Assembly (NCBI GenBank): GCA_017399145.1
Contig: JAFQEG010000011.1
Span: forward strand, 7,306 to 71,305
Source of the DNA: Clostridia bacterium
GTDB lineage: Bacteria > Bacillota > Clostridia > Oscillospirales > CAG-272
Direction of reading: 5' to 3'
Length of the DNA: 64,000 nucleotides
Position numbers and translations under genes: made by a program. A model generated the notes under the pieces. The model was not told where the DNA came from and did not search any database. It saw only the letters and a list, made by a program, of their open reading frames with translations. Positions within the stretch are counted from its first letter, which is position 1; the number at the start of each line of letters is the position of its first letter. Below are positions 49,695 through 64,000 of this stretch, one piece after another.

Positions 49695-49723
49695 TAGACA
49701 ACCCAAAATTTCTGTGATAAAAT
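49695..49723 (+). promoter_or_regulatory. Candidate sigma-A promoter of the FtsK/WXG operon
   Basis: TAGACA-N17-TAAAAT with extended -10 TG, about 230 nt upstream of the first ATG. Confidence 0.55.
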
Positions 49724-49954: not shown

Positions 49955-52900
49955 ATGGATATAAAAACCTTTATCAAGGACGCAAACGAAGAATATGTCA
50001 AAATGAAAAGTGACCTTGAGGTTGAAAGAAAGACCCTTTCCGAGGCACTCAAGAAGGCAGAGGACGCTCTAAACAATGAAAGAGAGCGCTTTAGGGCTGA
50101 GGAAAAGGAGCTTCTTAGCGTTTTAGATGCTACCAAAAAGGAAAGAATCGGCGAGATTGAAAGAATTGCTACCGAAAAAATGGATATTCTTAAAGCCGAA
50201 AAGGATAAGATAATAAATAGCGAGGCCTCTCGTAGGCAAAACGTTGAAAATGCCTACAAGGATAGATTTGAGGGACTTGAATCTGAGCATAATGAAAGAC
50301 TAGAGGAGCTTAAGAGAAGATACGAAACTCGCAAAAATCTCGCTAAGCGAGAGTACGAGGAATTAAGACAGGACCTAGAAAGCTCATCGGCTGTGCACGG
50401 GGATATGGACGCTATGCTTGCAAGTCAGCAAAATCGTGACCTGCTAGAGAAAATCGATGAGATTGAGGACAGAAACGTTTTGCTTCGTGCATCTATCAAG
50501 GAGGAGCTTGAAAGCTATAGCGAAAAGCTAACTGAGTATTTAAATCTTAAGGATTTCACCTTTGAGCCACCCTCGAAAAAGGACCTTTTAGAAAGAGCAA
50601 ATAGGTATTACGAAAGCTTAGATGAGCTAAACGTATACAAGGCTAAGCTTCAAAAATCTCAGGGCTGTGATGCCCTTGTTGAGTACAACAAGGCAACCCT
50701 TGAGGAGGCGAAGAAGGAATTTGAAAAGAGCCTTCAGGAAATCGACGAATGGTATTTGCAGGAGCTTGAGGGCGAAAATCGCAAATACACAAAGGAAAAG
50801 AATATCCTAGAAAATCAAAAGAACAATTCTGATGTTGAAAAGCCTGAAATTGCCGAAAGAATCGCTCAAATTGACAAGGAGCTAAAGGAAATTGAGGAAT
50901 CTCTAATTGCTGAAAGTGGCAAGATTATGGAGGACTTGTCAAAAAGCGAGGGCGCTAAGACCAGAATGTTTAACATGATTAAGGCAGAGGAGCTAAGAGT
51001 ACAGGAGGAAGGACTTCAAAAGGCTAAGGAAAGGCTTGATGAGTTTGTTAAGAGTCAAGATAAAAGGCTTGAGGACCTACTAAACAGAATCAAGAAGGAT
51101 TTACAAGAGATAATTGGTAGTGGCAAAGACTTTTCCGTAGGTCAAATAAGAGACGGAAGGGTACGGACCGCCTTGCCGAAGTCAATTGCAATAGGTAGAT
51201 GTGGCACAACTCTTGCACAATGTGAGCTTGTGGAAAGGCTTTACGGTAAGAGTGGGTTAGAAATACCTGCTACCGTAAGCGTTGACGTTTTAGGTGGCGA
51301 GGCATTAATCTTTACCTCGGACAACGAGGAATATCTTGACAGAATTATGGGTGGTATTACTCTTAAATTCTTAGAGGAATTTCCCAAGGAAAGCCTAGGG
51401 GTTAGAATTATTTCCTCTGAAAGAGAAATATTTAACTCAATTGCTAGTGGAATAGCAGAGAATGAAAAATCAACAATTATCAATAAGGACCCACACCCAG
51501 CCCTTACCTTTGCTGATGCAGAGTCAAACAGAATTGCATCTAAGCTAGGCGGGGAGATAAAAAATGCCTTCGACCTTTACGAAAAAGAAAAGGGCAGAGT
51601 CATCACTCTTGTTGTTATTCGTGATGGCATTGAGGAAATCCTAGGGGATAAGGAAATGCTAGCGATTCTTAGAAAGCTTCTTTCTGAAAGAGGAAGAAAT
51701 TCCGGAATTAGATTTATAATTGCTTGCAAGAATACCGAGGAATTAAAGGACCTTTACGAGAGTGGACTTTCTATTTCTATTAAGGGCGAGGACGTGCTTT
51801 ATGGCGAGGAAAAAATTGACATTTGCACTATTCCAAATCAAGATATATCATTCTTTATAAAGGGTGTTTTTTCCGATATAGCATCTCTTAACGAGGGCTT
51901 TGCAGGTGGCGATATTCCTCTTGCTAGCTATTGTGCTAGCCTTGACGAGTTAGACAAGACAGAAAAGGAAGCTAAAAAAAACCAAGTCAATAAAGCCTTT
52001 TCAATAGATGGAAGAATTACCTATGAGGATTTGGGCTTTAACAGTCCTTTTGAGGAAATGGGCGAGGAGTTTGACTTGCCTATTGGCGCAACAGAAAATG
52101 GAATTGCCACAATTAGCTTTGATTGCGGAAATAAGGGTGGACAGAATACAGGTGGACTAGTTGTTGGTGCAACTGCTACCGGAAAATCCTCCCTTCTTAA
52201 TAGTCTTGTTGTAGAGGGCTGTAAGAAATATTCCCCTAAGGACCTTGAATTGTGGCTTTTGGACTTTAAAAAAGAGGGCGCAGTAAACGGATATGTCGAC
52301 TCAAAAATCCCTCATATTAAGGTGCTTAAGCAGGGTGCTAACGAGGACGATATTTATTATATCCTAAGCAACCTATGTGTGGAAATTGAGAGGAGAAGGG
52401 ACCTCTTTGAAGCAACAGGGGCAGGGATAAGACAAGAGAAATTTAAAAACGTATTTGAATATAATGAATTTGTAAGGAAAAATGATGGCTACGGCGACAC
52501 TCTACCTAGAATTGTATTGATTGTCGATGAGGTGCAGGAGCTGTTTCAAAATAAGGAAAACAGCCTAATTGCAGAAATTATGACAATGCTAGCGACAATT
52601 ACGGTAAGAGGTCGATGTATGGGTATCCATACGGTTATGATTGGAAACGGGATATGTCCCGATGATTTTGCTTTTAGAAATGCTTACATTAATCACATTA
52701 AGTGTAAGGTAAGCTTTAGAATGAGTGAGGGTGCATTGAGAGAAGCACAGCTAGGCAAGGAATTTGAGGAAATTAGTCAAGAAATTTCCACCTTACAGCC
52801 TGGTCAAATGTACGTTTCGCTTGGAAACAACATAGTTAAAGCAAAGACTCCTTATGTTAATAGTCAGTGCCTTGAGGAATATCTTGAAGAGATACGCAAG

Positions 52901-53743
52901 AATTTTAAGAATGTAGAAAATAGCAAGAATGACTACTCGTGGTTTATGAAAAATCCAATTTATTCACAAGAGGGCACCTCCCTTGTGATTGGAGAATGCT
53001 TTTACACAGGTAAGCCTGTATATGCAACCTTCAATGATAAAAGGTCGTCACTGGCTGTATTAAGTAAAAATGAGGACGTTCAGTCCCGTATTCTTTCCTC
53101 TATTTTAATAGGGGTAAGTGAGGTAAAGGGGGCAAGGGCGCTTTGCTGTAATGGTGCTAGCATATACGAGGCACTATTTCATAAAACTATAAAGGAAAGG
53201 GCAGGACTAAGCGTAAGAGGCTACGAGAAAACTGATTTTGCCGAGATGATTAAGGACGCATATAGCGAGCTTGTAAGCAGACAAAACAGTAATCAGAAAA
53301 ATGATGCACCTTTATTTGTAATAATCAATGGCTTATCAAGGCTTACTCAATTAGACGGAAGAATATCTAATAACGAGGGACCTAGATTTGCCTCATCCTC
53401 AATCGATAATATTCTTGGAAATAAAATGGGCTTTGTTGTTAGTCAACCACAGGACCATAATATTAGTGTAAGACAGGCTTGTCAGGACTTGATTACACAG
53501 GGCACAGAGGTTGGTATTTACGTTGTTATCTCTGCGGATAGCATAGAAAATTGCACTGAGCTTGTTTCAAAATGTCAGGACGTGGTTGCTACAAATGATA
53601 TTTTAGAGGATTTTGACCTTGAGGGCTGTGGACTTGGCAGACTTGTGCCATTTCTTTCAAAAATAGAAAAGGATGAACACGAAAGCGTGATTTTTACACG
53701 TGGCAATAGCATCGACAAAATAAAACCTATCATCTTTGGATAA
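49955..53743 (+). CDS. FtsK/SpoIIIE (EssC/EccC-like) ATPase with long N-terminal coiled coil, no TM segment
   Basis: About 380-aa K/E-rich coiled coil; central Walker A GATATGKS, KYSPKDLELWLLDFKK, Walker B LIVDEVQELF, RGRCMGIH; flanking degenerate FtsK-like domains. Confidence 0.85.
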   Translation: MDIKTFIKDANEEYVKMKSDLEVERKTLSEALKKAEDALNNERERFRAEEKELLSVLDATKKERIGEIERIATEKMDILKAEKDKIINSEASRRQNVENAYKDRFEGLESEHNERLEELKRRYETRKNLAKREYEELRQDLESSSAVHGDMDAMLASQQNRDLLEKIDEIEDRNVLLRASIKEELESYSEKLTEYLNLKDFTFEPPSKKDLLERANRYYESLDELNVYKAKLQKSQGCDALVEYNKATLEEAKKEFEKSLQEIDEWYLQELEGENRKYTKEKNILENQKNNSDVEKPEIAERIAQIDKELKEIEESLIAESGKIMEDLSKSEGAKTRMFNMIKAEELRVQEEGLQKAKERLDEFVKSQDKRLEDLLNRIKKDLQEIIGSGKDFSVGQIRDGRVRTALPKSIAIGRCGTTLAQCELVERLYGKSGLEIPATVSVDVLGGEALIFTSDNEEYLDRIMGGITLKFLEEFPKESLGVRIISSEREIFNSIASGIAENEKSTIINKDPHPALTFADAESNRIASKLGGEIKNAFDLYEKEKGRVITLVVIRDGIEEILGDKEMLAILRKLLSERGRNSGIRFIIACKNTEELKDLYESGLSISIKGEDVLYGEEKIDICTIPNQDISFFIKGVFSDIASLNEGFAGGDIPLASYCASLDELDKTEKEAKKNQVNKAFSIDGRITYEDLGFNSPFEEMGEEFDLPIGATENGIATISFDCGNKGGQNTGGLVVGATATGKSSLLNSLVVEGCKKYSPKDLELWLLDFKKEGAVNGYVDSKIPHIKVLKQGANEDDIYYILSNLCVEIERRRDLFEATGAGIRQEKFKNVFEYNEFVRKNDGYGDTLPRIVLIVDEVQELFQNKENSLIAEIMTMLATITVRGRCMGIHTVMIGNGICPDDFAFRNAYINHIKCKVSFRMSEGALREAQLGKEFEEISQEISTLQPGQMYVSLGNNIVKAKTPYVNSQCLEEYLEEIRKNFKNVENSKNDYSWFMKNPIYSQEGTSLVIGECFYTGKPVYATFNDKRSSLAVLSKNEDVQSRILSSILIGVSEVKGARALCCNGASIYEALFHKTIKERAGLSVRGYEKTDFAEMIKDAYSELVSRQNSNQKNDAPLFVIINGLSRLTQLDGRISNNEGPRFASSSIDNILGNKMGFVVSQPQDHNISVRQACQDLITQGTEVGIYVVISADSIENCTELVSKCQDVVATNDILEDFDLEGCGLGRLVPFLSKIEKDEHESVIFTRGNSIDKIKPIIFG

Positions 53744-53777
53744 TCGTTAGATTTAAAAGGGATTGGTATGATAATTA

Positions 53778-54722
53778 ATGGAAAACAATAATTTTAATAT
53801 GAATAACAATGATTTAAAGGACTTGGGCTTTTTTGACTTTGTGCCAAAGGGTAAGAATCAGTATACATCAATACCCTTCGGCTTTAAGGAAAATGGAATT
53901 GTAGCCCTTGACCTAGATGAATGGAAAAATGGTGGAATGCTTACGTTAGCAGAGGACATAGATGAGATAGAAGCATTGCAAGAGGCTATTCTGTTAATGG
54001 GCTGTATGAAGTATTCACCAGATGACCTAAGGGTTATGGCTATTAGTAAAAATAGCTCCCTTGCAAGTAATTTGAAGAAATGGGACCTTCCTCACACTAT
54101 AAGCACTATTTGTGTTGGGAATTACTATGACTTTGCAATGGCGCTTGAAAATCTTTTGAATTTTATTAAAAGACGAGACCAAAAGCTACAAATACTAGGA
54201 AAAATAAATAACATTCAGGTGGAAAATATCTTTGAGTTTAATAAAATCGCATTAGAAGACTCAAAAAATTCAATAGCGCCAATGGAAAGAGTAATGGTCT
54301 TTATTGACGACATATACGACATTATTGATACCGCTAGCAAAGAAAGTGATAAAGACGAAATTATGGAAAGGCTAGCCCAGGTTATAATAAGCGGTAAGGA
54401 TGTAGGCGTTTACCTAGTGGCAGGCGCAACACCTAGGGCACAGCTAGACTATAAAATAACTAAGTCGGTTGCCCCTTATGTAAGTACTCTTGGCACCTTT
54501 AGGTTGGAAAATGGACTTGAGGCAGAGTTAAGCCTAGGTGGGGACCTTGAGGGTCACACAGAGGATATAGAGGGATTAGCCAAGGGTCAGCTTTTTTTGG
54601 TGGCTAGCTGTGAAAACGGTAAGAAAAAAAGCCTAGTTAAATTAGCAAAATATGACACCTTGCAAAGAGAGGAATACGTAAGCGCAATAAAGGACAATTA
54701 CTTCTTCTTTCAAAATAATTAA
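53778..54722 (+). CDS. Stand-alone degenerate FtsK-type domain (pseudo-ATPase)
   Basis: IPFG..LDL, KYSPDDLRV, NIFEFN, RVMVFIDDI, GKDVGVYLV, LAKGQ parallel the active domain; no GxxGxGK[S/T]. Confidence 0.75.
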   Translation: MENNNFNMNNNDLKDLGFFDFVPKGKNQYTSIPFGFKENGIVALDLDEWKNGGMLTLAEDIDEIEALQEAILLMGCMKYSPDDLRVMAISKNSSLASNLKKWDLPHTISTICVGNYYDFAMALENLLNFIKRRDQKLQILGKINNIQVENIFEFNKIALEDSKNSIAPMERVMVFIDDIYDIIDTASKESDKDEIMERLAQVIISGKDVGVYLVAGATPRAQLDYKITKSVAPYVSTLGTFRLENGLEAELSLGGDLEGHTEDIEGLAKGQLFLVASCENGKKKSLVKLAKYDTLQREEYVSAIKDNYFFFQNN

Positions 54723-54727
54723 GGGGG

Positions 54728-55717
54728 ATGGGTATGAGCTTTTTTAGTAGAAAAAGAGAAAAATCACAACTCGACGCTAAAAGACTTGAGGGTGTAGGCA
54801 CAAACGAAATAAATCGTGATGGATACTGTCCGCTAGTGTGCAAAATACCGGTTGGTCTTTGCGAAAACGAGATTTACAATTTGGACTTTAGTAGCGAAAG
54901 AGACGCTTGTGCGTCTTATATGATAACAGGAAACAGGGATTCAATAAAGGGACTATTAGACGCAATAATTATAAATGGATCCTTGAAATATACACCAGGT
55001 GAGGTTTCCTTTAGGCTTTATGATACAGAGTCTTATGGAATGCTAGACCCATATGAAAATGCAAGACTTCCACATATCACAAGAATAGGGTCACATATAG
55101 GCGAAAACGAGGCTGTTCACGAGCTATTTAGACTAGCTGACGTAATAAAAAAGCGTGGCGAGCTTTTTAAGTCTCTTGGTGAAAAATGTGGGGTAGAAAT
55201 CAATAATATTTGTGAATATAATTCCTATGCTAAGACCCAAGAAAAGGGCACCTTCAAGCATAAGAAGAGAATTATAGCTGTACTTAACGGAATTAGAAAA
55301 ATTTTAAATTCTCCTCAAGCAGACGAAAGATATGTAAAGCAGGTATGCTATCTTGTTGAGAATATAGCAAAAAGAGGGTCAGCCCTAGGTGTGCATTTGA
55401 TTTTGACAAGCACAGCCTTTTCGAATAGCGAGATTGACAAGCTACTACAAAGCACCTTTGTACAAAGGGCACAGGGAAGAGTGGTCCTTGCGCAAGAAAA
55501 GAGTGAGGCTAAAAGGTTAGACTTTGGTAAGGCCTTTGCTAAGAGAATAAAGGAAATAGCAAGGTTAGGTAAGGGACAAGGCCTTGTGACAGTTGACGGA
55601 AAACGGGTAAGCCTTGTTGATATAGCAACCCTTACACCACTAGAGGAATATATTGAAATGGTAAGCGACTCTGTCTTCTTCTATGAAGAAAAAACCGAGA
55701 AGCTAAGTAAAAAATAG
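54728..55717 (+). CDS. Stand-alone degenerate FtsK-type domain (pseudo-ATPase)
   Basis: IPVG..LDF, KYTPGEVSFRLYD, LPHI, NICEYN, RGSALGVHLIL, LGKGQ; Walker A and B both lost (ITGNRDS; VLNG). Confidence 0.75.
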   Translation: MGMSFFSRKREKSQLDAKRLEGVGTNEINRDGYCPLVCKIPVGLCENEIYNLDFSSERDACASYMITGNRDSIKGLLDAIIINGSLKYTPGEVSFRLYDTESYGMLDPYENARLPHITRIGSHIGENEAVHELFRLADVIKKRGELFKSLGEKCGVEINNICEYNSYAKTQEKGTFKHKKRIIAVLNGIRKILNSPQADERYVKQVCYLVENIAKRGSALGVHLILTSTAFSNSEIDKLLQSTFVQRAQGRVVLAQEKSEAKRLDFGKAFAKRIKEIARLGKGQGLVTVDGKRVSLVDIATLTPLEEYIEMVSDSVFFYEEKTEKLSKK

Positions 55718-55727
55718 GGAAAAGAAA

Positions 55728-55973
55728 ATGACTAAGAATGGCAAGCAAGAGGCGATAGCCTTGATAAACGCACTGAGGACCTGCAAGGATTCGGCAGATG
55801 ACGGAATAAAGAGTGCTTATTACAAAAGCGAGGATTTGCTTTGGGAGGATAAGCAACGTGCTGTTTTTGATAGAAATATTGAGCAGGTAATTAGTATTGC
55901 GATAAATGGAATAAACCTACTTGACAGATATGCCAATGAAATGGAATTGATGGTTAAGGAGGGTGACAAATGA
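55728..55973 (+). CDS. WXG100-like small helical protein (central WxD)
   Basis: 81 aa, helix-turn-helix pattern with central LWEDKQRAVF. Confidence 0.6.
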   Translation: MTKNGKQEAIALINALRTCKDSADDGIKSAYYKSEDLLWEDKQRAVFDRNIEQVISIAINGINLLDRYANEMELMVKEGDK

Positions 55974-56251
55974 GCGAGGCTGATAGAATAGATATGGACG
56001 TGTCAGTTGAGGATTTGGCTTCTGTAAGAGAGCACATAAGCCTTTGCTCAAGAGCATTTTCCACAGCTACTCAAAAAATAGAGGAATATTCAAAAAACGG
56101 AAACGAAAAATATAGCATGTCCAAGGACACTAACGAAAAATCAATGGAGATTTTAGGTGCTACTGCAATGGGAATAAACGGCTTAGCTATACATTTAAGC
56201 AAGCTTGAGGATTACGTTAAGGAATACTTAAGCTGTAAGTATGAGGGGTAG
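55970..56251 (+). CDS. WXG100-like small helical protein (no Trp motif)
   Basis: 93 aa; IDMDVSVEDL N-terminus and C-terminal LEDYVKEYL resemble EsxB-like partners; translationally coupled. Confidence 0.5.
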   Translation: MSEADRIDMDVSVEDLASVREHISLCSRAFSTATQKIEEYSKNGNEKYSMSKDTNEKSMEILGATAMGINGLAIHLSKLEDYVKEYLSCKYEG

Positions 56252-56255
56252 GTGC

Positions 56256-56537
56256 ATGACCTTGAAGAAAATGAAGAAAACCTCCTTAGAGCTTCAATTA
56301 ATTGAGGCAAGCGAAGCCTTTGAAGCACTAAAGCAAGCCTATTCCACAGACTCCTGGAGTGATTCGGTTAAGGAATCCTATGGAAGATTGCTTGACCAAC
56401 AAGAGATAGTGCTTGAAAAATTAAACGACTATACCGAGGCTAAAAGAGATCTTGTGCAGGACGTAGACCTAGAGGATGTTGACAAGCTAATCCAGTTAGC
56501 AAAGGGCGTTTGCGATCAGGCAGGTGACATTAAATGA
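56256..56537 (+). CDS. WXG100-like small helical protein (central WxD)
   Basis: About 93 aa helical protein with DSWSDSVKESY. Confidence 0.55.
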   Translation: MTLKKMKKTSLELQLIEASEAFEALKQAYSTDSWSDSVKESYGRLLDQQEIVLEKLNDYTEAKRDLVQDVDLEDVDKLIQLAKGVCDQAGDIK

Positions 56538-57721: not shown

Positions 57722-57732
57722 GGGGGGAGAGT

Positions 57733-58176
57733 ATGAGAAGCTATGATTTGGCAAAGCTAGCCATAACCCTATTATCAAATGACGAGTCCTTATCCTTGCC
57801 CTTTCTAAAGAAGAAGGGAGACGGATTAACTCTAGGCTTCTTCACCTTTGGAGAAAAGCTTTATATGGAGGACGGGGCTATTCGTTTAGATAGAGAAATA
57901 TTGTACGTAAACGAAATTTGGGCAATAGACCCAATACTCACATCTGTAAAAAAGACAGAGTGTATAGGGCTTAAGGGCGTGCCCTGCTGGTATAACCCCT
58001 TAGGACAGTGCACAAAAGAGGAATACGAGGACGTTTACTTCGAGTATTGCAAATCAATTGATGAGGTCTTAGAGGGACAGGATAGTGTTGAAAAATACAA
58101 GGACCTTGCAAAAAGAGTTGTGCCTAAACAGCTAATAACTGCATACAAAAGCTGTGGTGCACAATTCCTAGAATAG
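57733..58176 (+). CDS. Hypothetical protein, candidate immunity/partner of the peptidase
   Basis: 147-aa ORF directly downstream of the effector with GGGGGGAG RBS. Confidence 0.5.
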   Translation: MRSYDLAKLAITLLSNDESLSLPFLKKKGDGLTLGFFTFGEKLYMEDGAIRLDREILYVNEIWAIDPILTSVKKTECIGLKGVPCWYNPLGQCTKEEYEDVYFEYCKSIDEVLEGQDSVEKYKDLAKRVVPKQLITAYKSCGAQFLE

Positions 58177-58186
58177 AGGTGATATA

Positions 58187-58858
58187 GTGGATAAGAATAA
58201 AAATGCAGAGGAAAATTTAAAATCACTCTCTTACTTTATGCAGGAAAGAGAAGGTCGCCTTTTTGATGAAATCAAGGAGGAGGCTGTATTTTATAGCAAT
58301 AGAGAAGATGGCGCACGAAAGGAATGCGCAGAGGAAATTGAAAAATTACGAAAAGCAACCGAGGACGAAAGAGAAAGGCTAAATCAAGCTAAGGAAAAGG
58401 CTATCGTTTTAAAACGGATAGCTACTGAAAAGAGGATTAACTCAAAGGGGTTATTTTCTGGACCGGTGCCTAGTCCTGAGTGTGTTGAGGTGGTGGAAAA
58501 AATGTCTTTCATAGCTGGTGAAATTTCCACTCAAGAGGCAAAAAATGCACTTGAGGCTATTTGCAAATATACAAAATCGGCAATGGAAAGAAAAATGGAC
58601 CAAGAGACCCTTGACGAAATTGTTAAGCAGGCAGATAACCTTATTGCTATATGCGAGAAGGATAGCGTAGAAAAGGCGCTTGAATACAAGATAAATCAAC
58701 GTCAGGCGGAAAGAGACCAAAGGCTAAAGCAATACGGGGACAACGTAAGGTCCACTATTGATATAGAGGTTACCCACTACATTGGTAATTTAAGACTAGA
58801 GCTTTTAGGCGAAAAATACGCATTCGGCGAGCCACCTAGAGTGCGCTCGACTAAATAA
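58187..58858 (+). CDS. Hypothetical coiled-coil protein
   Basis: GTG start after GAGGTG; E/K/R-rich helices; no TM. Confidence 0.6.
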   Translation: MDKNKNAEENLKSLSYFMQEREGRLFDEIKEEAVFYSNREDGARKECAEEIEKLRKATEDERERLNQAKEKAIVLKRIATEKRINSKGLFSGPVPSPECVEVVEKMSFIAGEISTQEAKNALEAICKYTKSAMERKMDQETLDEIVKQADNLIAICEKDSVEKALEYKINQRQAERDQRLKQYGDNVRSTIDIEVTHYIGNLRLELLGEKYAFGEPPRVRSTK

Positions 58859-58876
58859 TATGGAAGGGGAAAGCAA

Positions 58877-60211
58877 ATGGAATACAACGAATACGAAAAC
58901 AATCAATTAGAAAACGAGCCGGAAGAGGATAAGGGAATCAACCCACAGGCAAACTCAAATATTAACTACGTGCTAAGGAATTTTGAGGAGGTTGAGGAAA
59001 GCTACGAAAAGGCAAAAAGAGTTCTCACTAAGGAAATGGTTGCTCTTTGGGAAATGATAGCCTATGAAAGAAAACAGGCTGACTTGTACAGAAACAAGGT
59101 GCAGGCAGAGGATGTTATGGGCGTTATTCTTCCATTCTTGTCAGACATTGTAAATGACGTTGAGGATGCAACCGACTTAGACGAGGCAAAGCGAATTGTG
59201 GGAATTTATCTAAGGTCAATGAAAACTCACCTTATGAATATAGGTGTTGAGCTTAAGATGCACACAGAAAACGACGTGCTAGACCCAACCGAAAGAGTTG
59301 GTGGATCCTGTAAGAAGACGGGAGACAAGAGTCTTGACGGTAAAATTGCAAGAACCTCACAAATAGGCTGTGTAATTCACAACGAGGTGCCAACAGAAAT
59401 TCAAGAAAACGTTATTGTATATACATACGACCCAGAGCTTGACAAGGAGTTGCCACCGGATGAGCCACCGGTTGAAGAGGTGCCCGAGGAAAAGTCACCT
59501 GTGATTGACGAATCGGTTGAGGACACACCCGTTGAGGACGCACCAACAGACGAGGAATCTGTTGAGGATATACCCGGTATAAAGCTGTATGAAAACGAGA
59601 TTCAGTTTGTTAACCCAGTAGAGGATAAACCAGTTGAAGACGTACCGGTAGACGATACACCAGTTGAGGACGAACCAGTAGACGATACTCCAGTTGAGGA
59701 CACACCAGTAGACGATACACCAATTGAGGACGAACCAGTTGACGATACTCCGGTTGAGGACGAACCAGTTGACGATACTCCAGCTGAGGATGAACCAGTT
59801 GACGATACTCCAGCTGAGGGTGAACCAGTAGACGATACACCAATTGAAGACGTACCAGTTGAGGACGAACCAGTTAAAGACGACGAGCCAGTCATTAGGG
59901 CAACAGTTGACGAAAACGGAAGATATTTGCTTTGCGAATGCTTTAGAATTATAAGTAACAAGCTAAAGCCCTATACAAGGACTACTTCGTTTAAGCTAAA
60001 TCAAGGATATCCATATTCCTTCAAGGCTAATTCTGTAATTTCTATGTACGTAGGAGACCTTTGTATTGTATCCGAGTACAAAACAGAAAACGAGGAAAGA
60101 CAGCTAAGGGCTTGTGTTGATGAAATGGATGGACAGCTTGTCTTTCTCATAAGAGAGGGCAGAAAAGGCGGAAACGGCGAAATTATTGCACAATTTAAAA
60201 TTATTATATAG
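58877..60211 (+). CDS. GrpE-like protein with long acidic Pro repeat and C-terminal domain
   Basis: Coiled coil, then ILPFLSDI..LMNIGVE..DVLDPTE..TGDKSLDGKIARTSQIG..ENVIVY GrpE-type head; adjacent to Hsp70. Confidence 0.65.
   Translation: MEYNEYENNQLENEPEEDKGINPQANSNINYVLRNFEEVEESYEKAKRVLTKEMVALWEMIAYERKQADLYRNKVQAEDVMGVILPFLSDIVNDVEDATDLDEAKRIVGIYLRSMKTHLMNIGVELKMHTENDVLDPTERVGGSCKKTGDKSLDGKIARTSQIGCVIHNEVPTEIQENVIVYTYDPELDKELPPDEPPVEEVPEEKSPVIDESVEDTPVEDAPTDEESVEDIPGIKLYENEIQFVNPVEDKPVEDVPVDDTPVEDEPVDDTPVEDTPVDDTPIEDEPVDDTPVEDEPVDDTPAEDEPVDDTPAEGEPVDDTPIEDVPVEDEPVKDDEPVIRATVDENGRYLLCECFRIISNKLKPYTRTTSFKLNQGYPYSFKANSVISMYVGDLCIVSEYKTENEERQLRACVDEMDGQLVFLIREGRKGGNGEIIAQFKIII
59620..59890 (+). 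repeat. 15/30-nt coding tandem repeat (DDTP[VIA]-EDEPV)
   Basis: About 18 pentapeptide units, e.g. GACGATAC(A/T)CCAGTTGAGGACGAACCAGT. Confidence 0.9.
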
Positions 60212-60239
60212 GATTTGTTAAAAACGGAGGAAAATTAAA

Positions 60240-61796
60240 ATGATTATCGGAATAGACTTTGGAACTTGCTTTTCATCAATAGCGATTATGAACGGATTAA
60301 TTCCTGTTACCAACTTTGGTACAACAGGTGATGCAAGAGGAATACCTACACTATTCATGTTCTCTAAGGCACTTAATACAGAGCTTTATGGCACAGACTG
60401 CGAAATCGGTGAGGCGGTTGTTAATAGTAAAGAGGTTGTTCGATATATGAAGAAGATTGTAAGACAAAATCCTAACAATCTTAATGCAACAATCAGGACA
60501 AATGGTAAGGACTACACAATTAAAGAGATATTAAAGAAGTATCTTGCATTCCTTTTGGCTAAGGCTAAGGACAACGCAAGAAGAATTGGTGAAATCTCTA
60601 ACCTTGATTTTGAAAGAATTGCAATTACTGCCCCTGTTGGTATCGCTGAGGGTCAAATGACTGCAACAGACTACAACCAATTGCTAGTTGACACAGTAGT
60701 TGAAATTACAGGCGTTAGCAAGGATAAGGTAAGCATTATTCAAGAGCCAGTTGGCGCAGCTATGGCATACCTTTACAGTGACGATTTAAGAAGAATTTAC
60801 TCAAAGAAGCAAACCATTATGGTATTCGACCTAGGTGGTGGTACACTTGACGTAACTATTCTCGAGCATGACCCATACCTAAAGGAATACTCAATTAAGG
60901 ACAAGGACGGCGACCTTCAGCTAGGTGGTAACGATTGGGACCAAGCGCTAGCAGGTCTAGTTATGAAGAAGTCCGGTGCCACAGGTGACATTCTTGACCC
61001 AGAGGAAAAGAGCAAGTTTATATCTAAGGTTGTACGTCTAAAGGAAGACCTAACACCAAATGTAGCTGGTGAAATTTTCTTCAAGAAGGAAGGAAAAAGC
61101 TACTTTGCTGACGTAACAAGAGCGGAATTTGAATCAGCATCTAAGCCACTACTTGACAATGCGGTTAAGGTTGTAAAAAGAGTGCTTGGTAGATACAAGG
61201 GCACAATTGACAAGATTGTACTTGTTGGTGGTGCTTCCAATATGCCACAGATTGAAGCAAGACTAAAGAGCGAATTTGCTAACATTGTAAATGGCGAGGA
61301 AAATATCTTTAGATTTGACCCATCTAAGGCAATTTCAAAGGGTGCTGCAGTTTATGCAATGAAGCTTGAGGAGGACGACGGCGACAACAGGGCAAAGCCA
61401 AAGGATATTCTATCTCACACCTATGGCGTTGACTCACACAAGGACGGTGTTCATATGATTTACAACATTCTTTACAAGGGTGAATCAAAGCCAGCCTCAG
61501 CCACAGCAGCTACAACCTTTATGCCAAGAGAGGATAGCCAAACAAAGGCTGCATTTACAGTTTACGAGTCCGATGCAATTCGCACAGGAGACGATTCTAA
61601 CTCTAACTGGGTTAGCCTATCAGCAGGCAACTCAAATGGTATTAGAGTTACCGTTGACGTACCACAGGAATACCTAGGTAGAGCAACAAAGTTTGAAATT
61701 ACCCCTGAGCTTAGCATTGATGAAAACGAAATTCTTACTATCAACGTAAGAGACAGCAAGGGCAAAATCATCGGTACAGAAAAGAAACAGCTTTAA
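60240..61796 (+). CDS. Hsp70 family protein (non-canonical, lacks the C-terminal helical lid)
   Basis: IGIDFGT, EPVGAA, VFDLGGGTLDV, LGGNDWD, LVGGASNMP, AISKGAA; only 518 aa. Confidence 0.92.
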   Translation: MIIGIDFGTCFSSIAIMNGLIPVTNFGTTGDARGIPTLFMFSKALNTELYGTDCEIGEAVVNSKEVVRYMKKIVRQNPNNLNATIRTNGKDYTIKEILKKYLAFLLAKAKDNARRIGEISNLDFERIAITAPVGIAEGQMTATDYNQLLVDTVVEITGVSKDKVSIIQEPVGAAMAYLYSDDLRRIYSKKQTIMVFDLGGGTLDVTILEHDPYLKEYSIKDKDGDLQLGGNDWDQALAGLVMKKSGATGDILDPEEKSKFISKVVRLKEDLTPNVAGEIFFKKEGKSYFADVTRAEFESASKPLLDNAVKVVKRVLGRYKGTIDKIVLVGGASNMPQIEARLKSEFANIVNGEENIFRFDPSKAISKGAAVYAMKLEEDDGDNRAKPKDILSHTYGVDSHKDGVHMIYNILYKGESKPASATAATTFMPREDSQTKAAFTVYESDAIRTGDDSNSNWVSLSAGNSNGIRVTVDVPQEYLGRATKFEITPELSIDENEILTINVRDSKGKIIGTEKKQL

Positions 61797-61804
61797 TAAG
61801 AAAA

Positions 61805-61830
61805 AGAGAGTGCATTTTGCACTCTCGTTT
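61805..61830 (+). terminator. Probable weak terminator or processing hairpin
   Basis: GAGAGTGCA-TTT-TGCACTCTC-GTTTC with a poor U-tract. Confidence 0.55.
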
Positions 61831-61892
61831 CTGTCAATATGCGTAAAACACTGGGAGAAGTGTTTGATTTTGTCATTTTAAGGAGAAAACAA

Positions 61893-62459
61893 ATGAGCGT
61901 TGTTGTTGCAATAAAAAAGGACGGAGTCGTTTATATGGGTGCCGACACCCAAACGACTAGTGGAATACAAAGACGAAATTACCTAAAGGAAAGCAATCTT
62001 AAAATAGCCACCTTCGACAATGGAATGATTATTGGCCACGTGGGGGCGGTTTCCAGAAAAAGTATTCTTTTTCACTCTAAAAATATAATTCCTAAGCTAA
62101 AAATACCAAAAGAGGGCTTGACAAAAAAGGTTATTTACGAGCAACTAATACCTATGCTTCGTGACCAAGACGTGTTTTTCGACAAGGAGGAGGCAGAGGT
62201 GGACGCAAGCATGCTTATAGGCTATGGGGATAAGCTGTTTCGCGTAAGAAATGAGAGTGTTACTGAAATTAATGAGTATAGCTGCATAGGGTCTGGTGTC
62301 GATTTTGCTTGGGCTGTGATGGAAATTTATCACGAAAGGCTCGACCCTGTGTCGCTTTTAGATAAGGCAATGAGGGCATCCGCCAACAAAATTTCCTCGG
62401 TAAGTGGGCCATTTGTGTTTGTAAATACCAAGGACAGAAAAATTGAGGTGAGAGAATGA
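61893..62459 (+). CDS. Proteasome beta/HslV-like Ntn hydrolase (Ser1 nucleophile candidate)
   Basis: M-SVVVAIKKDGVVYMGADTQTT, NLKI, IIGHVG, CIGSGVDFA, SVSGPF; AGGAG RBS before ATG 61893. Confidence 0.8.
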   Translation: MSVVVAIKKDGVVYMGADTQTTSGIQRRNYLKESNLKIATFDNGMIIGHVGAVSRKSILFHSKNIIPKLKIPKEGLTKKVIYEQLIPMLRDQDVFFDKEEAEVDASMLIGYGDKLFRVRNESVTEINEYSCIGSGVDFAWAVMEIYHERLDPVSLLDKAMRASANKISSVSGPFVFVNTKDRKIEVRE

Positions 62460-63040
62460 TTGCGATTAAGGAAAATGGCGTAATTTATTTAGCTTATTCG
62501 CCTGTAAGTATGTATTGCTGGGGCTACTCTGACGAAAAAACACTCTTAGAGGAGGAAAACCTTTTTACCTTCGTAGCTGATGAGGAAAGAGGTGTAATTG
62601 CCGGCGTATCTCGTTATATGCCAAGGGCGGACGCAATAAGATACAATCTTAAGGGATGCTTTAATCTTGATGTTTATATGATGGGTGCTTGCTTAGAGGT
62701 CCAAAAGAAAATCGACGAGATTTTTGAGAAAAAGGGCTTTTATAACGGGGAGAAGCAACGAGAAAAGAATGAAAAAACTAAGATTTTTATAGCCCAAGAG
62801 GACAGAGGCTTTATATATAATCCCGTTGACAAGGACTGGATTGCCCTAGACGATGGAATAAATGCATGTATATCAAATGATATCTTTGAAAGTGCTTATG
62901 ATGCTTGCTATGAAATTGAGGATATTTACGAAAAAATAAAGCAAATTTTTCGCTTGTTTGGAAGGCAAGTTGACGAGATAGTCTTTCCTGTGGTGGCCCT
63001 TGACACAAAAACTAAAAAGCATAGGGTTATATGGGGGTAA
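62456..63040 (+). CDS. Divergent proteasome-beta-like paralog (probably non-catalytic)
   Basis: MIAIKENGVIYLAY, ENL, KIFIAQEDRGF, FPVVALDTK parallel the first paralog; lacks Thr/Ser1 and GSG. Confidence 0.55.
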   Translation: MIAIKENGVIYLAYSPVSMYCWGYSDEKTLLEEENLFTFVADEERGVIAGVSRYMPRADAIRYNLKGCFNLDVYMMGACLEVQKKIDEIFEKKGFYNGEKQREKNEKTKIFIAQEDRGFIYNPVDKDWIALDDGINACISNDIFESAYDACYEIEDIYEKIKQIFRLFGRQVDEIVFPVVALDTKTKKHRVIWG

Positions 63041-63043
63041 GAG

Positions 63044-63586
63044 ATGATTATAGCATTTAAGAAAAATGATATTGTATATCTTGGATACGACCAATACATA
63101 AAATTTGAAGAGGCAGGCCATACCCTTAATGCAAAGGAAAACTCTAAGGTTATCAAAAAATATAATGATGCGCTAGCTGGTGCTAGCGGACCTCTTGCAC
63201 TTAACAATTTTATGAGAACTGCAAATTGGCTTGTTGTAGAGGACGAAAAGCTTGAATACGACCAGCTTTTTGTCAATTTACTTGTTAGCTTTAGGGACAG
63301 ACGTGACCTTGTGGCTGATTCTAGAATTATAATTGCCTACAAGGATAAGCTATTCTTATTCCGTGAGGGCATGGACCTTTTTGAATTGGACGATTTTTGC
63401 GCCTGTGGTACAGGTGAGCAATACGCAATCGGCTATTTGTATATGAATTTTGACAAGGAAAACGACCCGGAAAAGCTAATGAAGGACACCTTTGCATACG
63501 TAAGAAAAAGAGTAACCAACATAGGCAAGGATATTGTACTTGTTAACACGAGGGACCTTGAGTTTGTGGAGGTGAAAAAATGCTAA
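63044..63586 (+). CDS. Proteasome-beta/HslV-like paralog lacking the N-terminal nucleophile
   Basis: MIIAFKKNDIVYLGYDQ, ENSKV, LAGASG, IIIAYKDKLF, ACGTGEQYAIG, IVLVNTRD. Confidence 0.7.
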   Translation: MIIAFKKNDIVYLGYDQYIKFEEAGHTLNAKENSKVIKKYNDALAGASGPLALNNFMRTANWLVVEDEKLEYDQLFVNLLVSFRDRRDLVADSRIIIAYKDKLFLFREGMDLFELDDFCACGTGEQYAIGYLYMNFDKENDPEKLMKDTFAYVRKRVTNIGKDIVLVNTRDLEFVEVKKC

Positions 63587-64000
63587 TAGTAAGAGAAAAG
63601 GGAATAGTTTATTTAGTAGAAAGTCTAGGGGAAAACGTAAGCGACAAGGACCTTAAGCTTTCTTATCGTGACCTTATGAATCCACGCAATTGCTCACTTT
63701 TTAAATTTAGACTATCTAAGGTGATAGGTGGTATATCTACAAATGAATCAAGCTTGGGTCACCCATACAAAACCATATACGACCTAAGAGGCGAGCTAAC
63801 AGCCCAAAAAATTGTAAACGAGATACTTCCCGTAATTCAAGAAACAACGGACTTAATTGGTTGGAACCCCGAGGACCACGAGGGGGCAAAGCACCCCTAT
63901 GATAACTTTATTTTGGCAAGGGGCGATGTGGTGTTTAGAATACATAGGTCTGGGGCAGTTATTGAAATTGAGTCCGATTGTGAGGCAACAGGCACCGATT
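63580..64000 (+). CDS. Fourth proteasome-beta-like paralog, 3'-truncated by the window edge (absent from the ORF track)
   Basis: Manual translation MLIVREKGIVYLVES..LTAQKIVNEILP..FILARGDVVFRI..VIEIE, open to base 64000 and overlapping the previous stop. Confidence 0.6.
   Translation, partial: MLIVREKGIVYLVESLGENVSDKDLKLSYRDLMNPRNCSLFKFRLSKVIGGISTNESSLGHPYKTIYDLRGELTAQKIVNEILPVIQETTDLIGWNPEDHEGAKHPYDNFILARGDVVFRIHRSGAVIEIESDCEATGTD

What the first reader, a model, noticed from the sequence alone, without database searches (positions are those of the whole stretch)
49955..64000. Candidate new system: membrane-less type VII-like FtsK/WXG machine coupled to Hsp70-GrpE and a proteasome-like array
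Seen: 15 co-oriented, mostly tightly spaced genes. In order they encode a coiled-coil FtsK ATPase, two FtsK pseudo-ATPases, three WXG100-like proteins, a coiled-coil papain-fold peptidase plus a small partner, a coiled-coil protein, a GrpE-like protein, an Hsp70 and at least four Ntn/proteasome-beta-like genes. I see no TM helix or signal peptide in any of them. Established: T7SS needs a membrane-anchored EssC/EccC and membrane components (EsaA/EssA/EssB or EccB/D/E), none of which is here. Inference: this is a cytoplasmic ATP-driven protein-handling or conflict system in which an FtsK ring engages WXG-tagged substrates, aided by a dedicated chaperone pair and possibly a self-compartmentalising protease. 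Alternatively it is a T7SS variant whose membrane parts lie elsewhere.
Basis: partly seen in the sequence, partly recalled or inferred. Interest (0 to 1): 0.92.

Follow-up and report, generated by a model that had tools for sequence, protein, structure and literature searches.

The report
Membrane-less FtsK island with Hsp70 and proteasome-like genes
A rare 15-gene island in an uncultured gut Clostridia bacterium joins an already noted membrane-less type-VII-like ATPase and effector module to its own Hsp70/GrpE-like chaperone pair and four proteasome-like genes, a combination I did not find described, whose function is still unknown.

Summary
The 15 co-oriented genes are real (window 49955 to 64161; the last gene ends 161 nt past the window). 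Confirmed:
- a coiled-coil, TM-less EccC/EssC-type FtsK ATPase
- two Walker-A-less FtsK paralogs
- a coiled-coil C39-like papain peptidase with a conserved small partner
- a lidless Hsp70
- a GrpE-like protein
- four proteasome-beta/HslV/BPH-like paralogs, of which only the first keeps the N-terminal Ser and catalytic motifs

The "WXG100-like" call is only weakly supported.

The membrane-less FtsK/WXG/coiled-coil-effector core is not new. Bell 2024 describes it in passages I read and cites Anantharaman 2012, which was not held. It recurs without Hsp70 or Ntn genes in 12 other loci of the same genus.

The new part is the coupling to a dedicated Hsp70/GrpE-like pair and a heteromeric proteasome-like array. 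The complete set occurs in only 3 of 50 species of the genus, at one syntenic site. It was not found in samples of 400 genomes each of family, order and class.

One independent link exists: a conserved family of proteins that fuse this GrpE-like domain to the same kind of FtsK ATPase.

Best reading (0.45): a modular, cytoplasmic, ATP-driven protein-remodelling conflict system. Rivals: unrecognised secretion (0.25) and mere juxtaposition (0.25). This is a new variant of a known kind.

The parts
49695..49742 (+). two overlapping promoter-like sites in the 430-nt gap upstream of g1
   Evidence: consensus scan only (L001 1-48); not evidence of function
49955..53743 (+). g1: N-terminal coiled coil of about 400 aa plus a T7SS-type (EccC/EssC-like) FtsK ATPase; one active P-loop domain flanked by two motif-less regions; no TM
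   Evidence: Pfam FtsK 1.7e-16 at 734-897. NCBIfam EccCa 1.6e-22, below cut-off. PDB EccC/YukB. Walker A at 738, Walker B at 854, max KD19 1.32.
53778..54722 (+). g2: FtsK-domain paralog without Walker A (pseudo-ATPase)
   Evidence: Pfam 9.5e-4. 25% identity to the g1-type ATPase domain. No Walker A.
54728..55717 (+). g3: FtsK-domain paralog without Walker A or B
   Evidence: Pfam 5.5e-3.. Retained in L002 at 65% identity.
55728..55973 (+). g4: 81-aa protein with a central W-E-D; weakly WXG100-like
   Evidence: hhalign vs 5 WXG100 proteins: probability 12%, E 0.0024, W on W. No Pfam hit.
55970..56251 (+). g5: 93-aa protein, no W motif, family unknown
   Evidence: No hit in Pfam, NCBIfam or hhalign.
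56241..56537 (+). g6: 98-aa (or 93-aa from M6) protein with a central W-S-D, family unknown
   Evidence: No hit. Motif W-x-D-x5-[FY] read.
56534..57721 (+). g7: coiled-coil N-terminal half plus a C-terminal papain-like (C39-like) peptidase; predicted effector
   Evidence: Peptidase_C39_2 9.4e-5, 23.4 bits. SMC-like coiled-coil hits at 33-158. Homologs in L104 at 4.9e-27, with Pfam above cut-off.
57733..58176 (+). g8: 147-aa partner of g7; candidate inhibitor or immunity protein
   Evidence: No family. A g8-like ORF (E 2.8e-6) again directly follows a g7-like effector in L104. A remnant is left in L002, where g4-g7 are missing.
58187..58858 (+). g9: 223-aa helical protein, family unknown; kept next to g10 in all three species
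   Evidence: 60% and 41% identity.
58877..60211 (+). g10: GrpE-like N-domain (about 30-190), acidic 5-aa repeat linker, C-terminal domain of about 105 aa of unknown family
   Evidence: 15-nt tandem repeat. Variant lengths of 404-464 aa.
60240..61796 (+). g11: lidless Hsp70 (NBD plus SBD-beta); the nucleotide-binding motifs appear intact by my own reading of the sequence
   Evidence: Pfam HSP70 5.9e-33. DnaK/BiP in PDB, residues 2-451. Sequence.
61806..61826 (+). 9-bp-stem hairpin between Hsp70 and the Ntn array, with a weak T tract
   Evidence: L001 12112-12132.
61893..62459 (+). g12: proteasome-beta/HslV/BPH-like Ntn hydrolase, probably active (Met-Ser start, GADTQ, K, GSG). The ORF can also start at 61839, but 20 of 22 aligned relatives start at the Met read here as M19.
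   Evidence: A1 alignment. BPH 1e-12, HslV 7.5e-11. NCBIfam HslV 1.6e-4.
62456..63040 (+). g13: inactive paralog (starts MIA; no GADTQ or GSG)
   Evidence: hhalign to A1 99.1%, E 6e-19.
63044..63586 (+). g14: inactive paralog (starts MII)
   Evidence: hhalign to A1 99.8%. Pfam Proteasome 0.0028.
63580..64000 (+). g15: inactive paralog (starts MLI); continues to window coordinate 64161
   Evidence: The GH39-like gene starts 3 nt after its stop.

Best explanation
The island is a modular, wholly cytoplasmic conflict-type system built from three units.

UNIT A (g1-g8) is the membrane-less relative of the type VII ATPase already noted in print. It holds a coiled-coil EssC-like hexameric motor, two dead ATPase paralogs, three small helical W-x-D proteins, a coiled-coil-tethered C39-like peptidase effector (g7) and its small partner (g8).

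UNIT B (g9-g11) is a dedicated lidless Hsp70 with its own GrpE-like exchange factor.

UNIT C (g12-g15) is a proteasome-like protease made of one active and three inactive paralogs.

PROPOSED WORKING (inferred, not shown). The effector is kept harmless by g8 and the small helical proteins. On a trigger such as an invading element or proteotoxic stress, the FtsK motor and the Hsp70, brought together through the GrpE-like protein, pull the complex apart. The proteasome-like particle degrades the released inhibitor or the captured foreign protein. The peptidase is then free to act inside the cell.

SHOWN: the domain identities, the lack of membrane segments, the modularity, and the FtsK/GrpE-like link. 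INFERRED: the trigger, the substrates, and the direction of flow.
For: 1. No membrane parts.
- No segment reaches KD19 1.6 in the 15 proteins, or in the FtsK proteins of L002, L003 and C43.
- EssB/YukC, YukD, EssA and the EsaA N-terminus were not found in the genome.
- Pfam WXG100 was found in only 3 of 101 genomes of the family.
- No TM protein family is shared among 16 TM-less FtsK loci.

2. FtsK and the GrpE-like protein work together.
- P0077 (657 aa) is a GrpE-like domain fused to an FtsK ATPase that matches g1 residues 673-980 at 3.2e-42.
- Two full-length homologs have 53-54% identity over 100% of the query.
- FtsK, g9, g10 and Hsp70 stay adjacent in all 3 species, although FtsK has diverged to 44% identity while Hsp70 stays at 80%.

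3. The literature places both unit types inside intracellular defence operons.
- TM-less coiled-coil EssC with WXG100 and a coiled-coil nuclease lies inside Type III-A CoCoNuT operons, which also carry Hsp70-like domains (PMC11090510, passages).
- HSP70 plus GrpE occur in GTPase-centric conflict systems (PMC7159879, passages).
- A genus-mate has VWA-VWA-PP2C-kinase followed by a GrpE-like gene and three Hsp70-like genes.

4. The distribution is patchy and accessory.
- Hsp70 type: 3 of 50 genomes in the genus, and 1 of 401 (the own genome only) in the order sample.
- GrpE-like type: 1 of 400 in the class sample, 3 of 401 in the family sample, and 1 of 3 and 1 of 16 in two other genera.

5. Relatives of the Ntn gene sit directly after an AAA ATPase in L019 and L026. 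This fits a chaperone-fed protease.

6. Complex prediction, g4+g5+g6 with g7(1-200): verdict 'weak support'.
- Score 0.60, best control 0.01.
- The mark was reached by 51 of 78 solved complexes and 2 of 108 mismatched pairs.
- At 0.60 or under it was reached by only 5 of those 78, and by all 4 mismatches that passed (of 180).
- The runs agree in at least 42% of contacts, and the partner's pLDDT is at least 62.
Against: - The full set is confined to one clade at one syntenic site, so its co-occurrence counts as a single evolutionary event.
- Units A, B and C each occur alone elsewhere. None of 12 other TM-less or ambiguous FtsK loci of the genus has g9-g15 relatives. L101 and L102 have the GrpE-like/Hsp70 pair without FtsK or Ntn genes. 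None of 42 metagenome Ntn loci, 10 of them 12 kb or longer, has Hsp70, FtsK, g9 or g10.
- L003 has lost the Ntn array. L002 and L003 have lost g4-g7. Either the parts are dispensable or the loci are decaying.
- Arrays of effector-plus-partner cassettes, as in L103 and L104, are the hallmark of secreted polymorphic toxins rather than of intracellular defence.
- No PADLOC system matches; the only hit is mad8 at 4.7e-9 on the ATPase.
- No structure could be predicted, so folds rest on sequence profiles.
- The genome is 76% complete.
Confidence: 0.45

Rival explanations
1. It is a type-VII-like export system for polymorphic peptidase toxins. The membrane conduit is unrecognised or encoded elsewhere. 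The W-x-D proteins and the g7 N-terminal helices form the export signal, and g8 is the immunity protein. Hsp70/GrpE-like strips immunity proteins or keeps substrates export-competent. The proteasome-like particle clears what is left behind.
For: - The ATPase belongs to the EccC/EssC branch.
- Three small helical proteins precede an effector that has a helical N-terminal half and is followed by a small partner. This layout matches EsaD with its three small partner proteins (PMC10653861, listing and abstract only).
- Genus-mates carry two successive C39-like effector/partner cassettes.
- An orphan g8 remnant remains in L002.
- According to Bell 2024, Anantharaman 2012 called the WXG100/FtsK operon a stand-alone secretion system.
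- The genome is only 76% complete.
- Complex prediction gave weak support: score 0.60, best control 0.01. 51 of 78 solved complexes and 2 of 108 mismatched pairs reached the mark. At 0.60 or under, only 5 of those 78 did, as did all 4 passing mismatches (of 180). Runs agree in at least 42% of contacts, and partner pLDDT is at least 62.
Against: - No TM segment in this or any of the 10 clearly TM-less FtsK proteins of the genus.
- No EssA, EssB, EsaA or YukD.
- No TM family conserved beside these loci.
- No signal peptide or TM segment in any island protein by hydropathy.
- Bell 2024 themselves say a different mechanism appears likely because the TM domains are missing.
Confidence: 0.25
2. It is a chance or hotspot juxtaposition of two or three independent accessory modules: FtsK/W-x-D/peptidase, Hsp70/GrpE-like and the Ntn array. 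They were inserted between glycoside hydrolase genes and share no mechanism.
For: - Each module is found alone elsewhere.
- The same genome has a second FtsK/WXG-like/coiled-coil locus beside an integrase, without Hsp70 or Ntn genes.
- Modules are lost independently in L002 and L003.
- A hairpin separates Hsp70 from the Ntn array.
- The island is followed after 3 nt by a GH39-like gene that genus-mates have without the island. Tight spacing here therefore does not prove shared function.
Against: - The GrpE-like::FtsK fusion family links two of the modules directly.
- FtsK stays beside g9-g11 in all three species despite deep divergence and the loss of other genes.
- All 15 genes are co-oriented, with overlaps or gaps of at most 43 nt and no strong terminator inside.
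Confidence: 0.25

Closest known systems
[quoted passage not shown]
   Same: - An FtsK ATPase of the EssC type with a long N-terminal coiled coil in place of FHA and TM segments.
- Only one central active P-loop.
- Small WXG-type helical proteins, one of them without the motif.
- An effector fused to a coiled coil and followed by a small protein.
- An Hsp70-like domain in the same operons.
(PMC11090510, passages; own data.)
   Different: - Here there are no McrB/McrC, HEPN, VWA or TerY-P genes.
- The effector is a C39-like peptidase, not a D-ExK nuclease.
- There are two extra dead ATPase genes.
- The Hsp70 is a separate protein. Its nucleotide-binding motifs look intact by my own reading of the sequence, whereas CnuD is described as degenerate. 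It has its own GrpE-like partner.
- Four proteasome-like genes are attached.
T7SSb (EssC, EsaA, EssA, EssB, YukD) with LXG or EsaD toxins and small helical partner proteins
   Same: - ATPase family.
- Three small helical genes before a toxin with a helical N-terminal part.
- A small partner gene after the toxin.
- Cassette turnover between strains.
(PMC10653861, abstract only.)
   Different: - No TM or FHA part in the ATPase.
- None of the four membrane or accessory families was found.
- Pfam WXG100 and LXG do not match g4-g7.
- The motif is W-x-D rather than W-x-G.
HSP70 plus GrpE modules of GTPase-centric and TerY-P-type conflict systems (Kaur 2020; locus L086 here)
   Same: Extra, non-housekeeping Hsp70 and GrpE-like genes in patchy accessory operons (PMC7159879, passages). 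The housekeeping GrpE lies elsewhere in this genome.
   Different: - No GAP1-N2 GTPase, DnaJ/FNIII, kinase, phosphatase or VWA gene in this island.
- The partner here is an FtsK ATPase and a proteasome-like array.
HslV, BPH and the 'Firmicute cluster' proteasome homologs (Fuchs 2021)
   Same: Fold family and catalytic layout, with Ser or Thr at position 1 after Met removal (PMC8665760, passages).
   Different: - Four tandem paralogs, only one of them with catalytic residues. The active-plus-inactive pairing recurs in short metagenome contigs L020, L022 and L023.
- They lie next to an Hsp70 here, and next to AAA ATPases in L019 and L026. Fuchs 2021 reported no informative genomic context.
- Which FC cluster they belong to was not tested.

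Membership tests
T7SSb secretion system | EssC with N-terminal FHA domains and two TM helices | tested here: not met
   g1 has a coiled coil of about 400 aa instead. Max KD19 is 1.32, and there is no FHA hit in Pfam.
T7SSb secretion system | membrane and accessory components EssA, EssB/YukC, EsaA and YukD in the locus or genome | tested here: not met
   PF10661, PF10140, TIGR03929 and PF08817 gave 0 matches at E<=0.01 in the own genome. The B. subtilis control was positive. The genome is 76% complete, so absence is not proven.
T7SSb secretion system | WXG100 substrate proteins | tested here: inconclusive
   No Pfam or NCBIfam hit for g4-g6. g4 hhalign 12%, E 0.0024. Size, position and a central W-x-D fit.
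TM-less coiled-coil EssC/WXG100/coiled-coil-effector module (Bell 2024) | EssC-type ATPase with a long N-terminal coiled coil and no TM | tested here: met
   (ZorA coiled-coil tail hit at 183-385).
TM-less coiled-coil EssC/WXG100/coiled-coil-effector module (Bell 2024) | three ATPase domains, only the central one active | tested here: inconclusive
   There is one Walker A/B pair at 738/854. The flanking regions 400-690 and 1000-1262 give only insignificant traces against a D2 model (independent E-values 0.03-0.5). No structure prediction was possible.
TM-less coiled-coil EssC/WXG100/coiled-coil-effector module (Bell 2024) | effector fused to a coiled coil, followed by a small protein | tested here: met
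   g7 has a coiled coil at 33-158 plus Peptidase_C39_2. g8 follows, and the pair is conserved in L104. The effector class differs: a peptidase, not a nuclease.
Hsp70/DnaK | actin-like NBD followed by SBD-beta | tested here: met
   PF00012 5.9e-33 over 2-449. DnaK/BiP chains align to residue 451. The helical lid is missing (518 aa in all).
GrpE | match to the GrpE family model | tested here: inconclusive
   Pfam GrpE does not reach g10 at E<=0.01. hhalign gives 79%, E 1.5e-5 over residues 78-167. 14 of 53 HMMER relatives of the domain carry PF01025. In the atlas, 27 of 30 nearest clusters are GrpE, at score 0.93.
Proteasome beta / HslV / BPH (Ntn hydrolases) | family profile match | tested here: met
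   The A1 profile hits BPH 5ovu at 1e-12 and HslV 1m4y at 7.5e-11. g13/g15 and g14 align to A1 at 99.1% and 99.8%.
Proteasome beta / HslV / BPH (Ntn hydrolases) | N-terminal Thr or Ser nucleophile with the Asp and Lys partners | tested here: met
   Met for g12 only: Met-Ser start and conserved D36, K55 and G-S-G in A1. Not met for g13, g14 and g15, which start MIA, MII and MLI.
Peptidase C39-like (papain fold) | Pfam PF13529 at or above 24 bits, with the Cys and His | tested here: inconclusive
   g7 scores 23.4 bits. Homologs in L104 score 25.5 and 34 bits. A Cys and a His are present, 108 residues apart. That these two are the catalytic pair is my assignment, not a tool result.
Known anti-phage defence systems (PADLOC 2.0) | match of the components to one system | tested here: not met
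   Only single-domain hits among the 10 proteins scanned (g4, g5, g6, g13 and g15 were not scanned): mad8 4.7e-9 on g1, coiled-coil or repeat-driven hits on g7 and g10, and PDC-M61B 2e-5 on g11.

The most novel reading that the evidence does not exclude
A bacterial cytoplasmic degradation pathway of a new design. A type-VII-family FtsK hexamer and a dedicated lidless Hsp70, coupled through a GrpE-like adaptor, would recognise proteins marked by small W-x-D helical hairpins. They would feed these into a heteromeric proteasome-like particle built from one active and three inactive paralogs. This would be a prokaryotic parallel to tag-unfoldase-proteasome systems, assembled from secretion-system and chaperone parts.
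Probability: 0.1. Interest if true: 0.9.

Novelty: new variant of a known kind. Interest (0 to 1): 0.6.

Why it matters
- Membrane-less EssC-like ATPases with WXG-type proteins have been noted twice in comparative-genomics papers. The passages I read treat them only by sequence analysis. Nobody knows whether they secrete or act inside the cell.
- This island, and the GrpE-like::FtsK fusion family found from it, point to Hsp70-type chaperoning as a working partner of that motor. This is a concrete, testable handle.
- It also gives the first suggestive genomic contexts for one group of the orphan proteasome homologs: tandem active-plus-inactive paralogs next to an Hsp70 or an AAA ATPase. Fuchs 2021 reported no informative context for such homologs.
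- The limits are plain. The complete set is seen in three uncultured gut species only, and no function is shown.

Tried and rejected
CLOSED OR UNAVAILABLE TOOLS
The contigs of P0077/P0090/P0091 and of the 50 distant GrpE-like relatives could therefore not be seen.
- Anantharaman 2012 (PMC4104200) is not held. I know it only through what Bell 2024 and PMC4978471 say of it.
- Supplements were not opened. Bell 2024's Supplementary file 1 may list loci like this one.

SEARCHES THAT FOUND NOTHING USEFUL
- PDB by sequence: g10 gave nothing at E<=10. g7 gave only chance hits.
- Protein atlas for g6: no usable hit.
- Plasmids: g11 hits only ordinary DnaK at 24-27% identity. g1 hits four unrelated FtsK proteins. 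g12 hits a lone gene on three Bacillus records of about 200 kb, with replication and nucleotide-metabolism genes around it.
- Viral contigs: no relative of the fusion family or of the GrpE-like family.
- Lone Ntn hits in four other genomes of the class showed no other island gene.
- L004 (a gammaproteobacterial Hsp70-like protein, 28% identity) has no FtsK nearby by tblastn. It was not pursued.
- L087 (G406, a weak GrpE hit) had no island relatives.

TESTS WITHOUT A RESULT
- Empty-site test: three genus-mates have the GH39-like gene at 64-68% identity but no GH92 or GH3 within about 12 kb. No clean empty site could be shown.
- The C-terminal domains of g10, of the fusion family and of the wider GrpE-like family show no detectable relation (hhalign 0.4-1.8%).
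- The L101 coiled-coil protein and its neighbour of about 200 aa show no similarity to the g1 N-terminus or to g9.
- No tRNA, no Rfam family and no flanking direct repeats mark the island ends.

EXPRESSION
- One metatranscriptomic run (X1) holds 12 short contigs at 90-99% likeness on the island. 14 of 30 bins have any depth.
- The listed pieces cross the g7/g8, g12/g13 and g14/g15 boundaries. One reaches across the end of g3 into the first 32 nt of g4.
- An RNA library can hold DNA, and contigs show neither transcripts nor levels. This is no more than a hint that a related strain's island is present and perhaps expressed.
- Uncovered parts say nothing.

Full report
WHAT IS THERE

The window is contig C7:7306-71305 of a 1.83-Mb genome in 44 contigs, 76% complete.

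From 49955, 15 plus-strand ORFs follow one another with overlaps or gaps of at most 43 nt. The last runs to window coordinate 64161, seen only after fetching the rest of the contig (L001).

The flanks:
- Upstream lie AraC, GH31, GH3 and GH92 genes, then a 430-nt gap.
- Downstream, 3 nt after the last stop, lies a GH39-like gene, then BspA-type LRR genes.
- A strong terminator-like hairpin comes only after the GH39-like gene. A weaker 9-bp hairpin lies between the Hsp70 gene and the next gene.
- No tRNA, Rfam family or flanking direct repeat marks the borders.

THE PROTEINS

g1 (1262 aa)
- One FtsK/SpoIIIE domain (Pfam 1.7e-16).
- Its nearest named relatives are EccCa, EccCb and EssC (NCBIfam, all far below full-length cut-offs), and solved EccC and YukB chains.
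- One Walker A (738) and one Walker B (854).
- The first 400 residues or so are coiled-coil-like (ZorA-tail hit).
- The flanking 290 and 260 residues give no significant domain signal.

g2 and g3
- Single FtsK-domain paralogs without Walker A.

g4, g5, g6 (81, 93 and 98 aa)
- No family hit.
- g4 and g6 carry a central W-x-D followed five residues later by F or Y. The same pattern occurs in small proteins of the second FtsK locus of this genome and of genus-mates.
- Only g4 aligns, weakly, to real WXG100 proteins taken from two genomes of the same family: probability 12%, E 0.0024, W on W.

g7 and g8
- g7 has a coiled-coil N-terminal half. Its C-terminal Peptidase_C39_2 match is just under threshold (23.4 vs 24 bits).
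- Its homologs in genome G831 pass threshold at 25.5 and 34 bits.
- g8 (147 aa) has no family. A g8-like ORF again follows a g7-like effector in G831.

g9
- A 223-aa helical protein of no known family.

g10
- An N-terminal domain that I accept as GrpE-like on four converging but individually moderate lines:
  1. hhalign to 23 housekeeping GrpE proteins of relatives: 79%, E 1.5e-5, with the helix-bundle and beta-domain motifs in register.
  2. A HMMER profile search of 1.84 billion representatives gave 53 relatives.
  3. 14 of those 53 carry Pfam GrpE.
  4. In the protein-language-model atlas, 27 of the 30 nearest clusters are GrpE.
- Pfam itself does not reach g10. The housekeeping GrpE lies on another contig.
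- The rest of g10 is an acidic 5-residue repeat whose copy number varies between near-identical variants of 404-464 aa, followed by a domain of about 105 aa of unknown family.

g11
- An Hsp70 with NBD and SBD-beta but no lid.

g12-g15
- The g12 family has only 29 clusters in 5.8 billion proteins, and many of them carry PF00227.
- Its profile hits BPH at 1e-12 and HslV at 7.5e-11.
- The alignment shows a Met-Ser start in 21 of the 22 aligned members (Met-Thr in one). It also shows conserved Asp, Lys and Gly-Ser-Gly. The true g12 start is therefore probably 61893.
- g13/g15 and g14 are homologs (hhalign 99.1% and 99.8%) but lack the nucleophile and these motifs.

No protein has a 19-residue window above Kyte-Doolittle 1.6.

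WHO ELSE HAS IT

Close relatives
- The Hsp70 found two close relatives among GTDB species genomes, both 'Clostridia bacterium' MAGs.
- In the genus, 3 of 50 species have this Hsp70 type.
- All three carry it at the same place, directly before the GH39-like gene.
- L002 keeps FtsK, g3, g9, g10, Hsp70 and the four Ntn genes. It lacks g4-g7 and keeps only a remnant of g8.
- L003 keeps only FtsK, a short g9, g10 and Hsp70, with a 37-residue remnant of g15.

Identity to the window's proteins, L002 / L003:

| Protein | L002 | L003 |
|---|---|---|
| Hsp70 | 91% | 80% |
| FtsK | 68% | 44% |
| g10 | 67% | 45% |
| g9 | 60% | 41% |
| Ntn genes | 53-67% | (lost) |
| GH39 flank | 84% | 94% |

Wider samples
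- Hsp70 type: only the own genome of 401 in the order sample.
- g10 N-domain: only the own genome of 400 in the class sample.
- Wider GrpE-like profile: 3 of 401 in the family sample.
- g12: 5 of 399 in the class sample. The four foreign hits were lone genes.

Two further hits in other genera
- They show the GrpE-like/Hsp70 pair (35% and 42% identity) without FtsK or Ntn genes.
- In one it sits with a 411-aa coiled-coil protein and a protein of about 200 aa. In the other it sits with a second Hsp70.
- The pair is sporadic there too: 1 of 3 and 1 of 16 genomes.

From the Ntn side
- A metagenome scan gave 42 loci. None has Hsp70, FtsK, g9 or g10 relatives; 10 of the 42 are 12 kb or longer.
- Five short contigs show tandem Ntn paralogs. 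In three of them (L020, L022, L023) the partner is of the inactive g13 kind.
- Two loci have an AAA ATPase directly upstream, and two have a protein kinase downstream.

From the FtsK side
- 18 of 50 genus genomes match the g1 ATPase domain.
- Of 19 further loci fetched, 7 are ordinary TM-bearing FtsK, 10 are TM-less and 2 are ambiguous.
- None of those 12 has g9-g15 relatives within about 8-9 kb.
- Two of them (G790, G831) repeat the g1-g8 plan: a coiled-coil FtsK, a short FtsK-domain protein, three small W-x-D proteins, a C39-like effector, a g8-like protein, then a second effector/partner pair.
- The window's own genome has a second such locus on contig C43 beside an integrase gene.

THE ONE INDEPENDENT LINK

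Among the 53 relatives of the GrpE-like domain, one (P0077, 657 aa) continues into an FtsK ATPase.
- The ATPase has an intact Walker A and matches g1 residues 673-980 at 3.2e-42.
- Two further clusters have the same full-length architecture at 53-54% identity.
- A conserved fusion of exactly these two domain types is the strongest evidence that the chaperone unit and the FtsK unit work together. Their neighbourhoods could not be fetched.

WHAT IS KNOWN

- Bell et al. 2024 (PMC11090510; I read the passages found for FtsK, WXG100, Hsp70 and Anantharaman) describe EssC homologs with an N-terminal coiled coil in place of FHA and TM parts and only the central ATPase active. [quoted passage not shown]
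- They cite Anantharaman 2012 for the same operon as a mobile, stand-alone unit, and they state that a mechanism other than classical secretion appears likely.
- Kaur 2020 (PMC7159879, passages) report HSP70 plus GrpE in GTPase-centric conflict systems.
- A genus-mate here carries VWA-VWA-PP2C-kinase followed by a GrpE-like gene and three Hsp70-like genes.
- Fuchs 2021 (PMC8665760, passages) describe many new proteasome homologs, including five Firmicute clusters, and say that no genomic context suggested a function.
- Three full-text searches combining FtsK or EssC, WXG100, Hsp70, GrpE and defence or anti-phage terms returned no paper on this combination. A separate search on proteasome homologs (HslV, Anbu, BPH) returned five papers, and the one I read reports no such context. 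This holds for the held library only.

READING

The claim of a new membrane-less machine is not, because that core is already described.

What appears new is its union with a dedicated lidless Hsp70, a GrpE-like adaptor and a one-active-plus-three-inactive proteasome-like set.

I favour a cytoplasmic, modular conflict system at 0.45, for three reasons:
- The lack of membrane parts is consistent across 10 clearly TM-less loci.
- Both unit types sit in intracellular defence operons elsewhere.
- The fusion ties the ATPase to the chaperone.

The effector/partner cassettes and their turnover keep a secretion reading alive at 0.25. The independent occurrence of every unit keeps simple juxtaposition alive at 0.25.

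The complex prediction for g4-g6 with the g7 N-terminal half gave only 'weak support', and fits both of the first two readings:
- Score 0.60, best control 0.01.
- 51 of 78 solved complexes and 2 of 108 mismatched pairs reach the mark.
- At 0.60 or under, only 5 of those 78 do, as do all 4 mismatches that passed (of 180).
- The runs agree in at least 42% of contacts, and the partner's pLDDT is at least 62.

Noticed in passing
own genome contig C43, locus L016 4048-13437 (minus strand): A second membrane-less FtsK locus in the same genome. In order: an integrase, a 1050-aa FtsK with Walker A and no TM, four small helical proteins (one with Pfam WXG100 at 2.6e-5, two with W-x-D), a 459-aa coiled-coil protein and a 211-aa protein. 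It has no Hsp70 or Ntn genes.
   Followed up: partly
proteins P0077, P0090, P0091 (metagenomic; contigs not retrievable): A conserved family of 657-671 aa that fuses a GrpE-like domain to a T7SS-type FtsK ATPase with an intact Walker A, plus an unknown domain of about 120 aa. None of my literature searches targeted this architecture.
   Followed up: partly
L086 (G791:C54) 2031-16553, minus strand: A genus-mate carries VWA, VWA, PP2C phosphatase and Ser/Thr kinase genes (a TerY-P-like triad), followed by a 544-aa GrpE-like protein and three Hsp70-like paralogs.
   Followed up: partly
metagenome loci L019, L026, L029; L017, L020, L022, L023, L033: Relatives of the g12 proteasome-like gene sit directly after an AAA ATPase (L019, L026) and before a protein kinase (L026, L029). 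Five short contigs carry tandem Ntn paralogs, three of them with a g13-like inactive partner. This may give a genomic context to orphan proteasome homologs.
   Followed up: partly
window 59453-59914 (L001 9759-10220), inside g10: A 15-nt tandem repeat encodes an acidic five-residue repeat. Near-identical variants of the protein in the database are 404 to 464 aa long, so the linker length is polymorphic.
   Followed up: no
L107-L110 and L119 (genus-mates): Another kind of TM-less FtsK-like gene (about 1040 aa) is embedded in long arrays of proteins with an N-terminal zinc ribbon and BspA-type leucine-rich repeats. BspA-LRR genes also follow the island here (L001 16033-17962).
   Followed up: no
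window 61806-61826: A perfect 9-bp-stem hairpin with a 3-nt loop lies between the Hsp70 stop and the Ntn array. It could be an attenuator, a processing site or an RNA-stability element.
   Followed up: no
L001 14467-14470 (window 64161-64164): The GH39-like gene starts 3 nt after the last island gene and has the only strong terminator behind it. Genus-mates without the island keep this gene, so it may be read through from the island.
   Followed up: partly
L015 (Bacillus paralicheniformis plasmid pBP1, 172946-173527): A lone g12-like gene (25% identity) lies on Bacillus records of about 200 kb, among replication and nucleotide-metabolism genes (ThyX, helicase, toprim, DnaN). This looks like a phage-plasmid-type setting.
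   Followed up: no
L004 9992-12082 (gammaproteobacterial MAG): A 696-aa Hsp70-like protein (28% identity to g11 over the NBD) is preceded by two small ORFs in an unrelated context.
   Followed up: no
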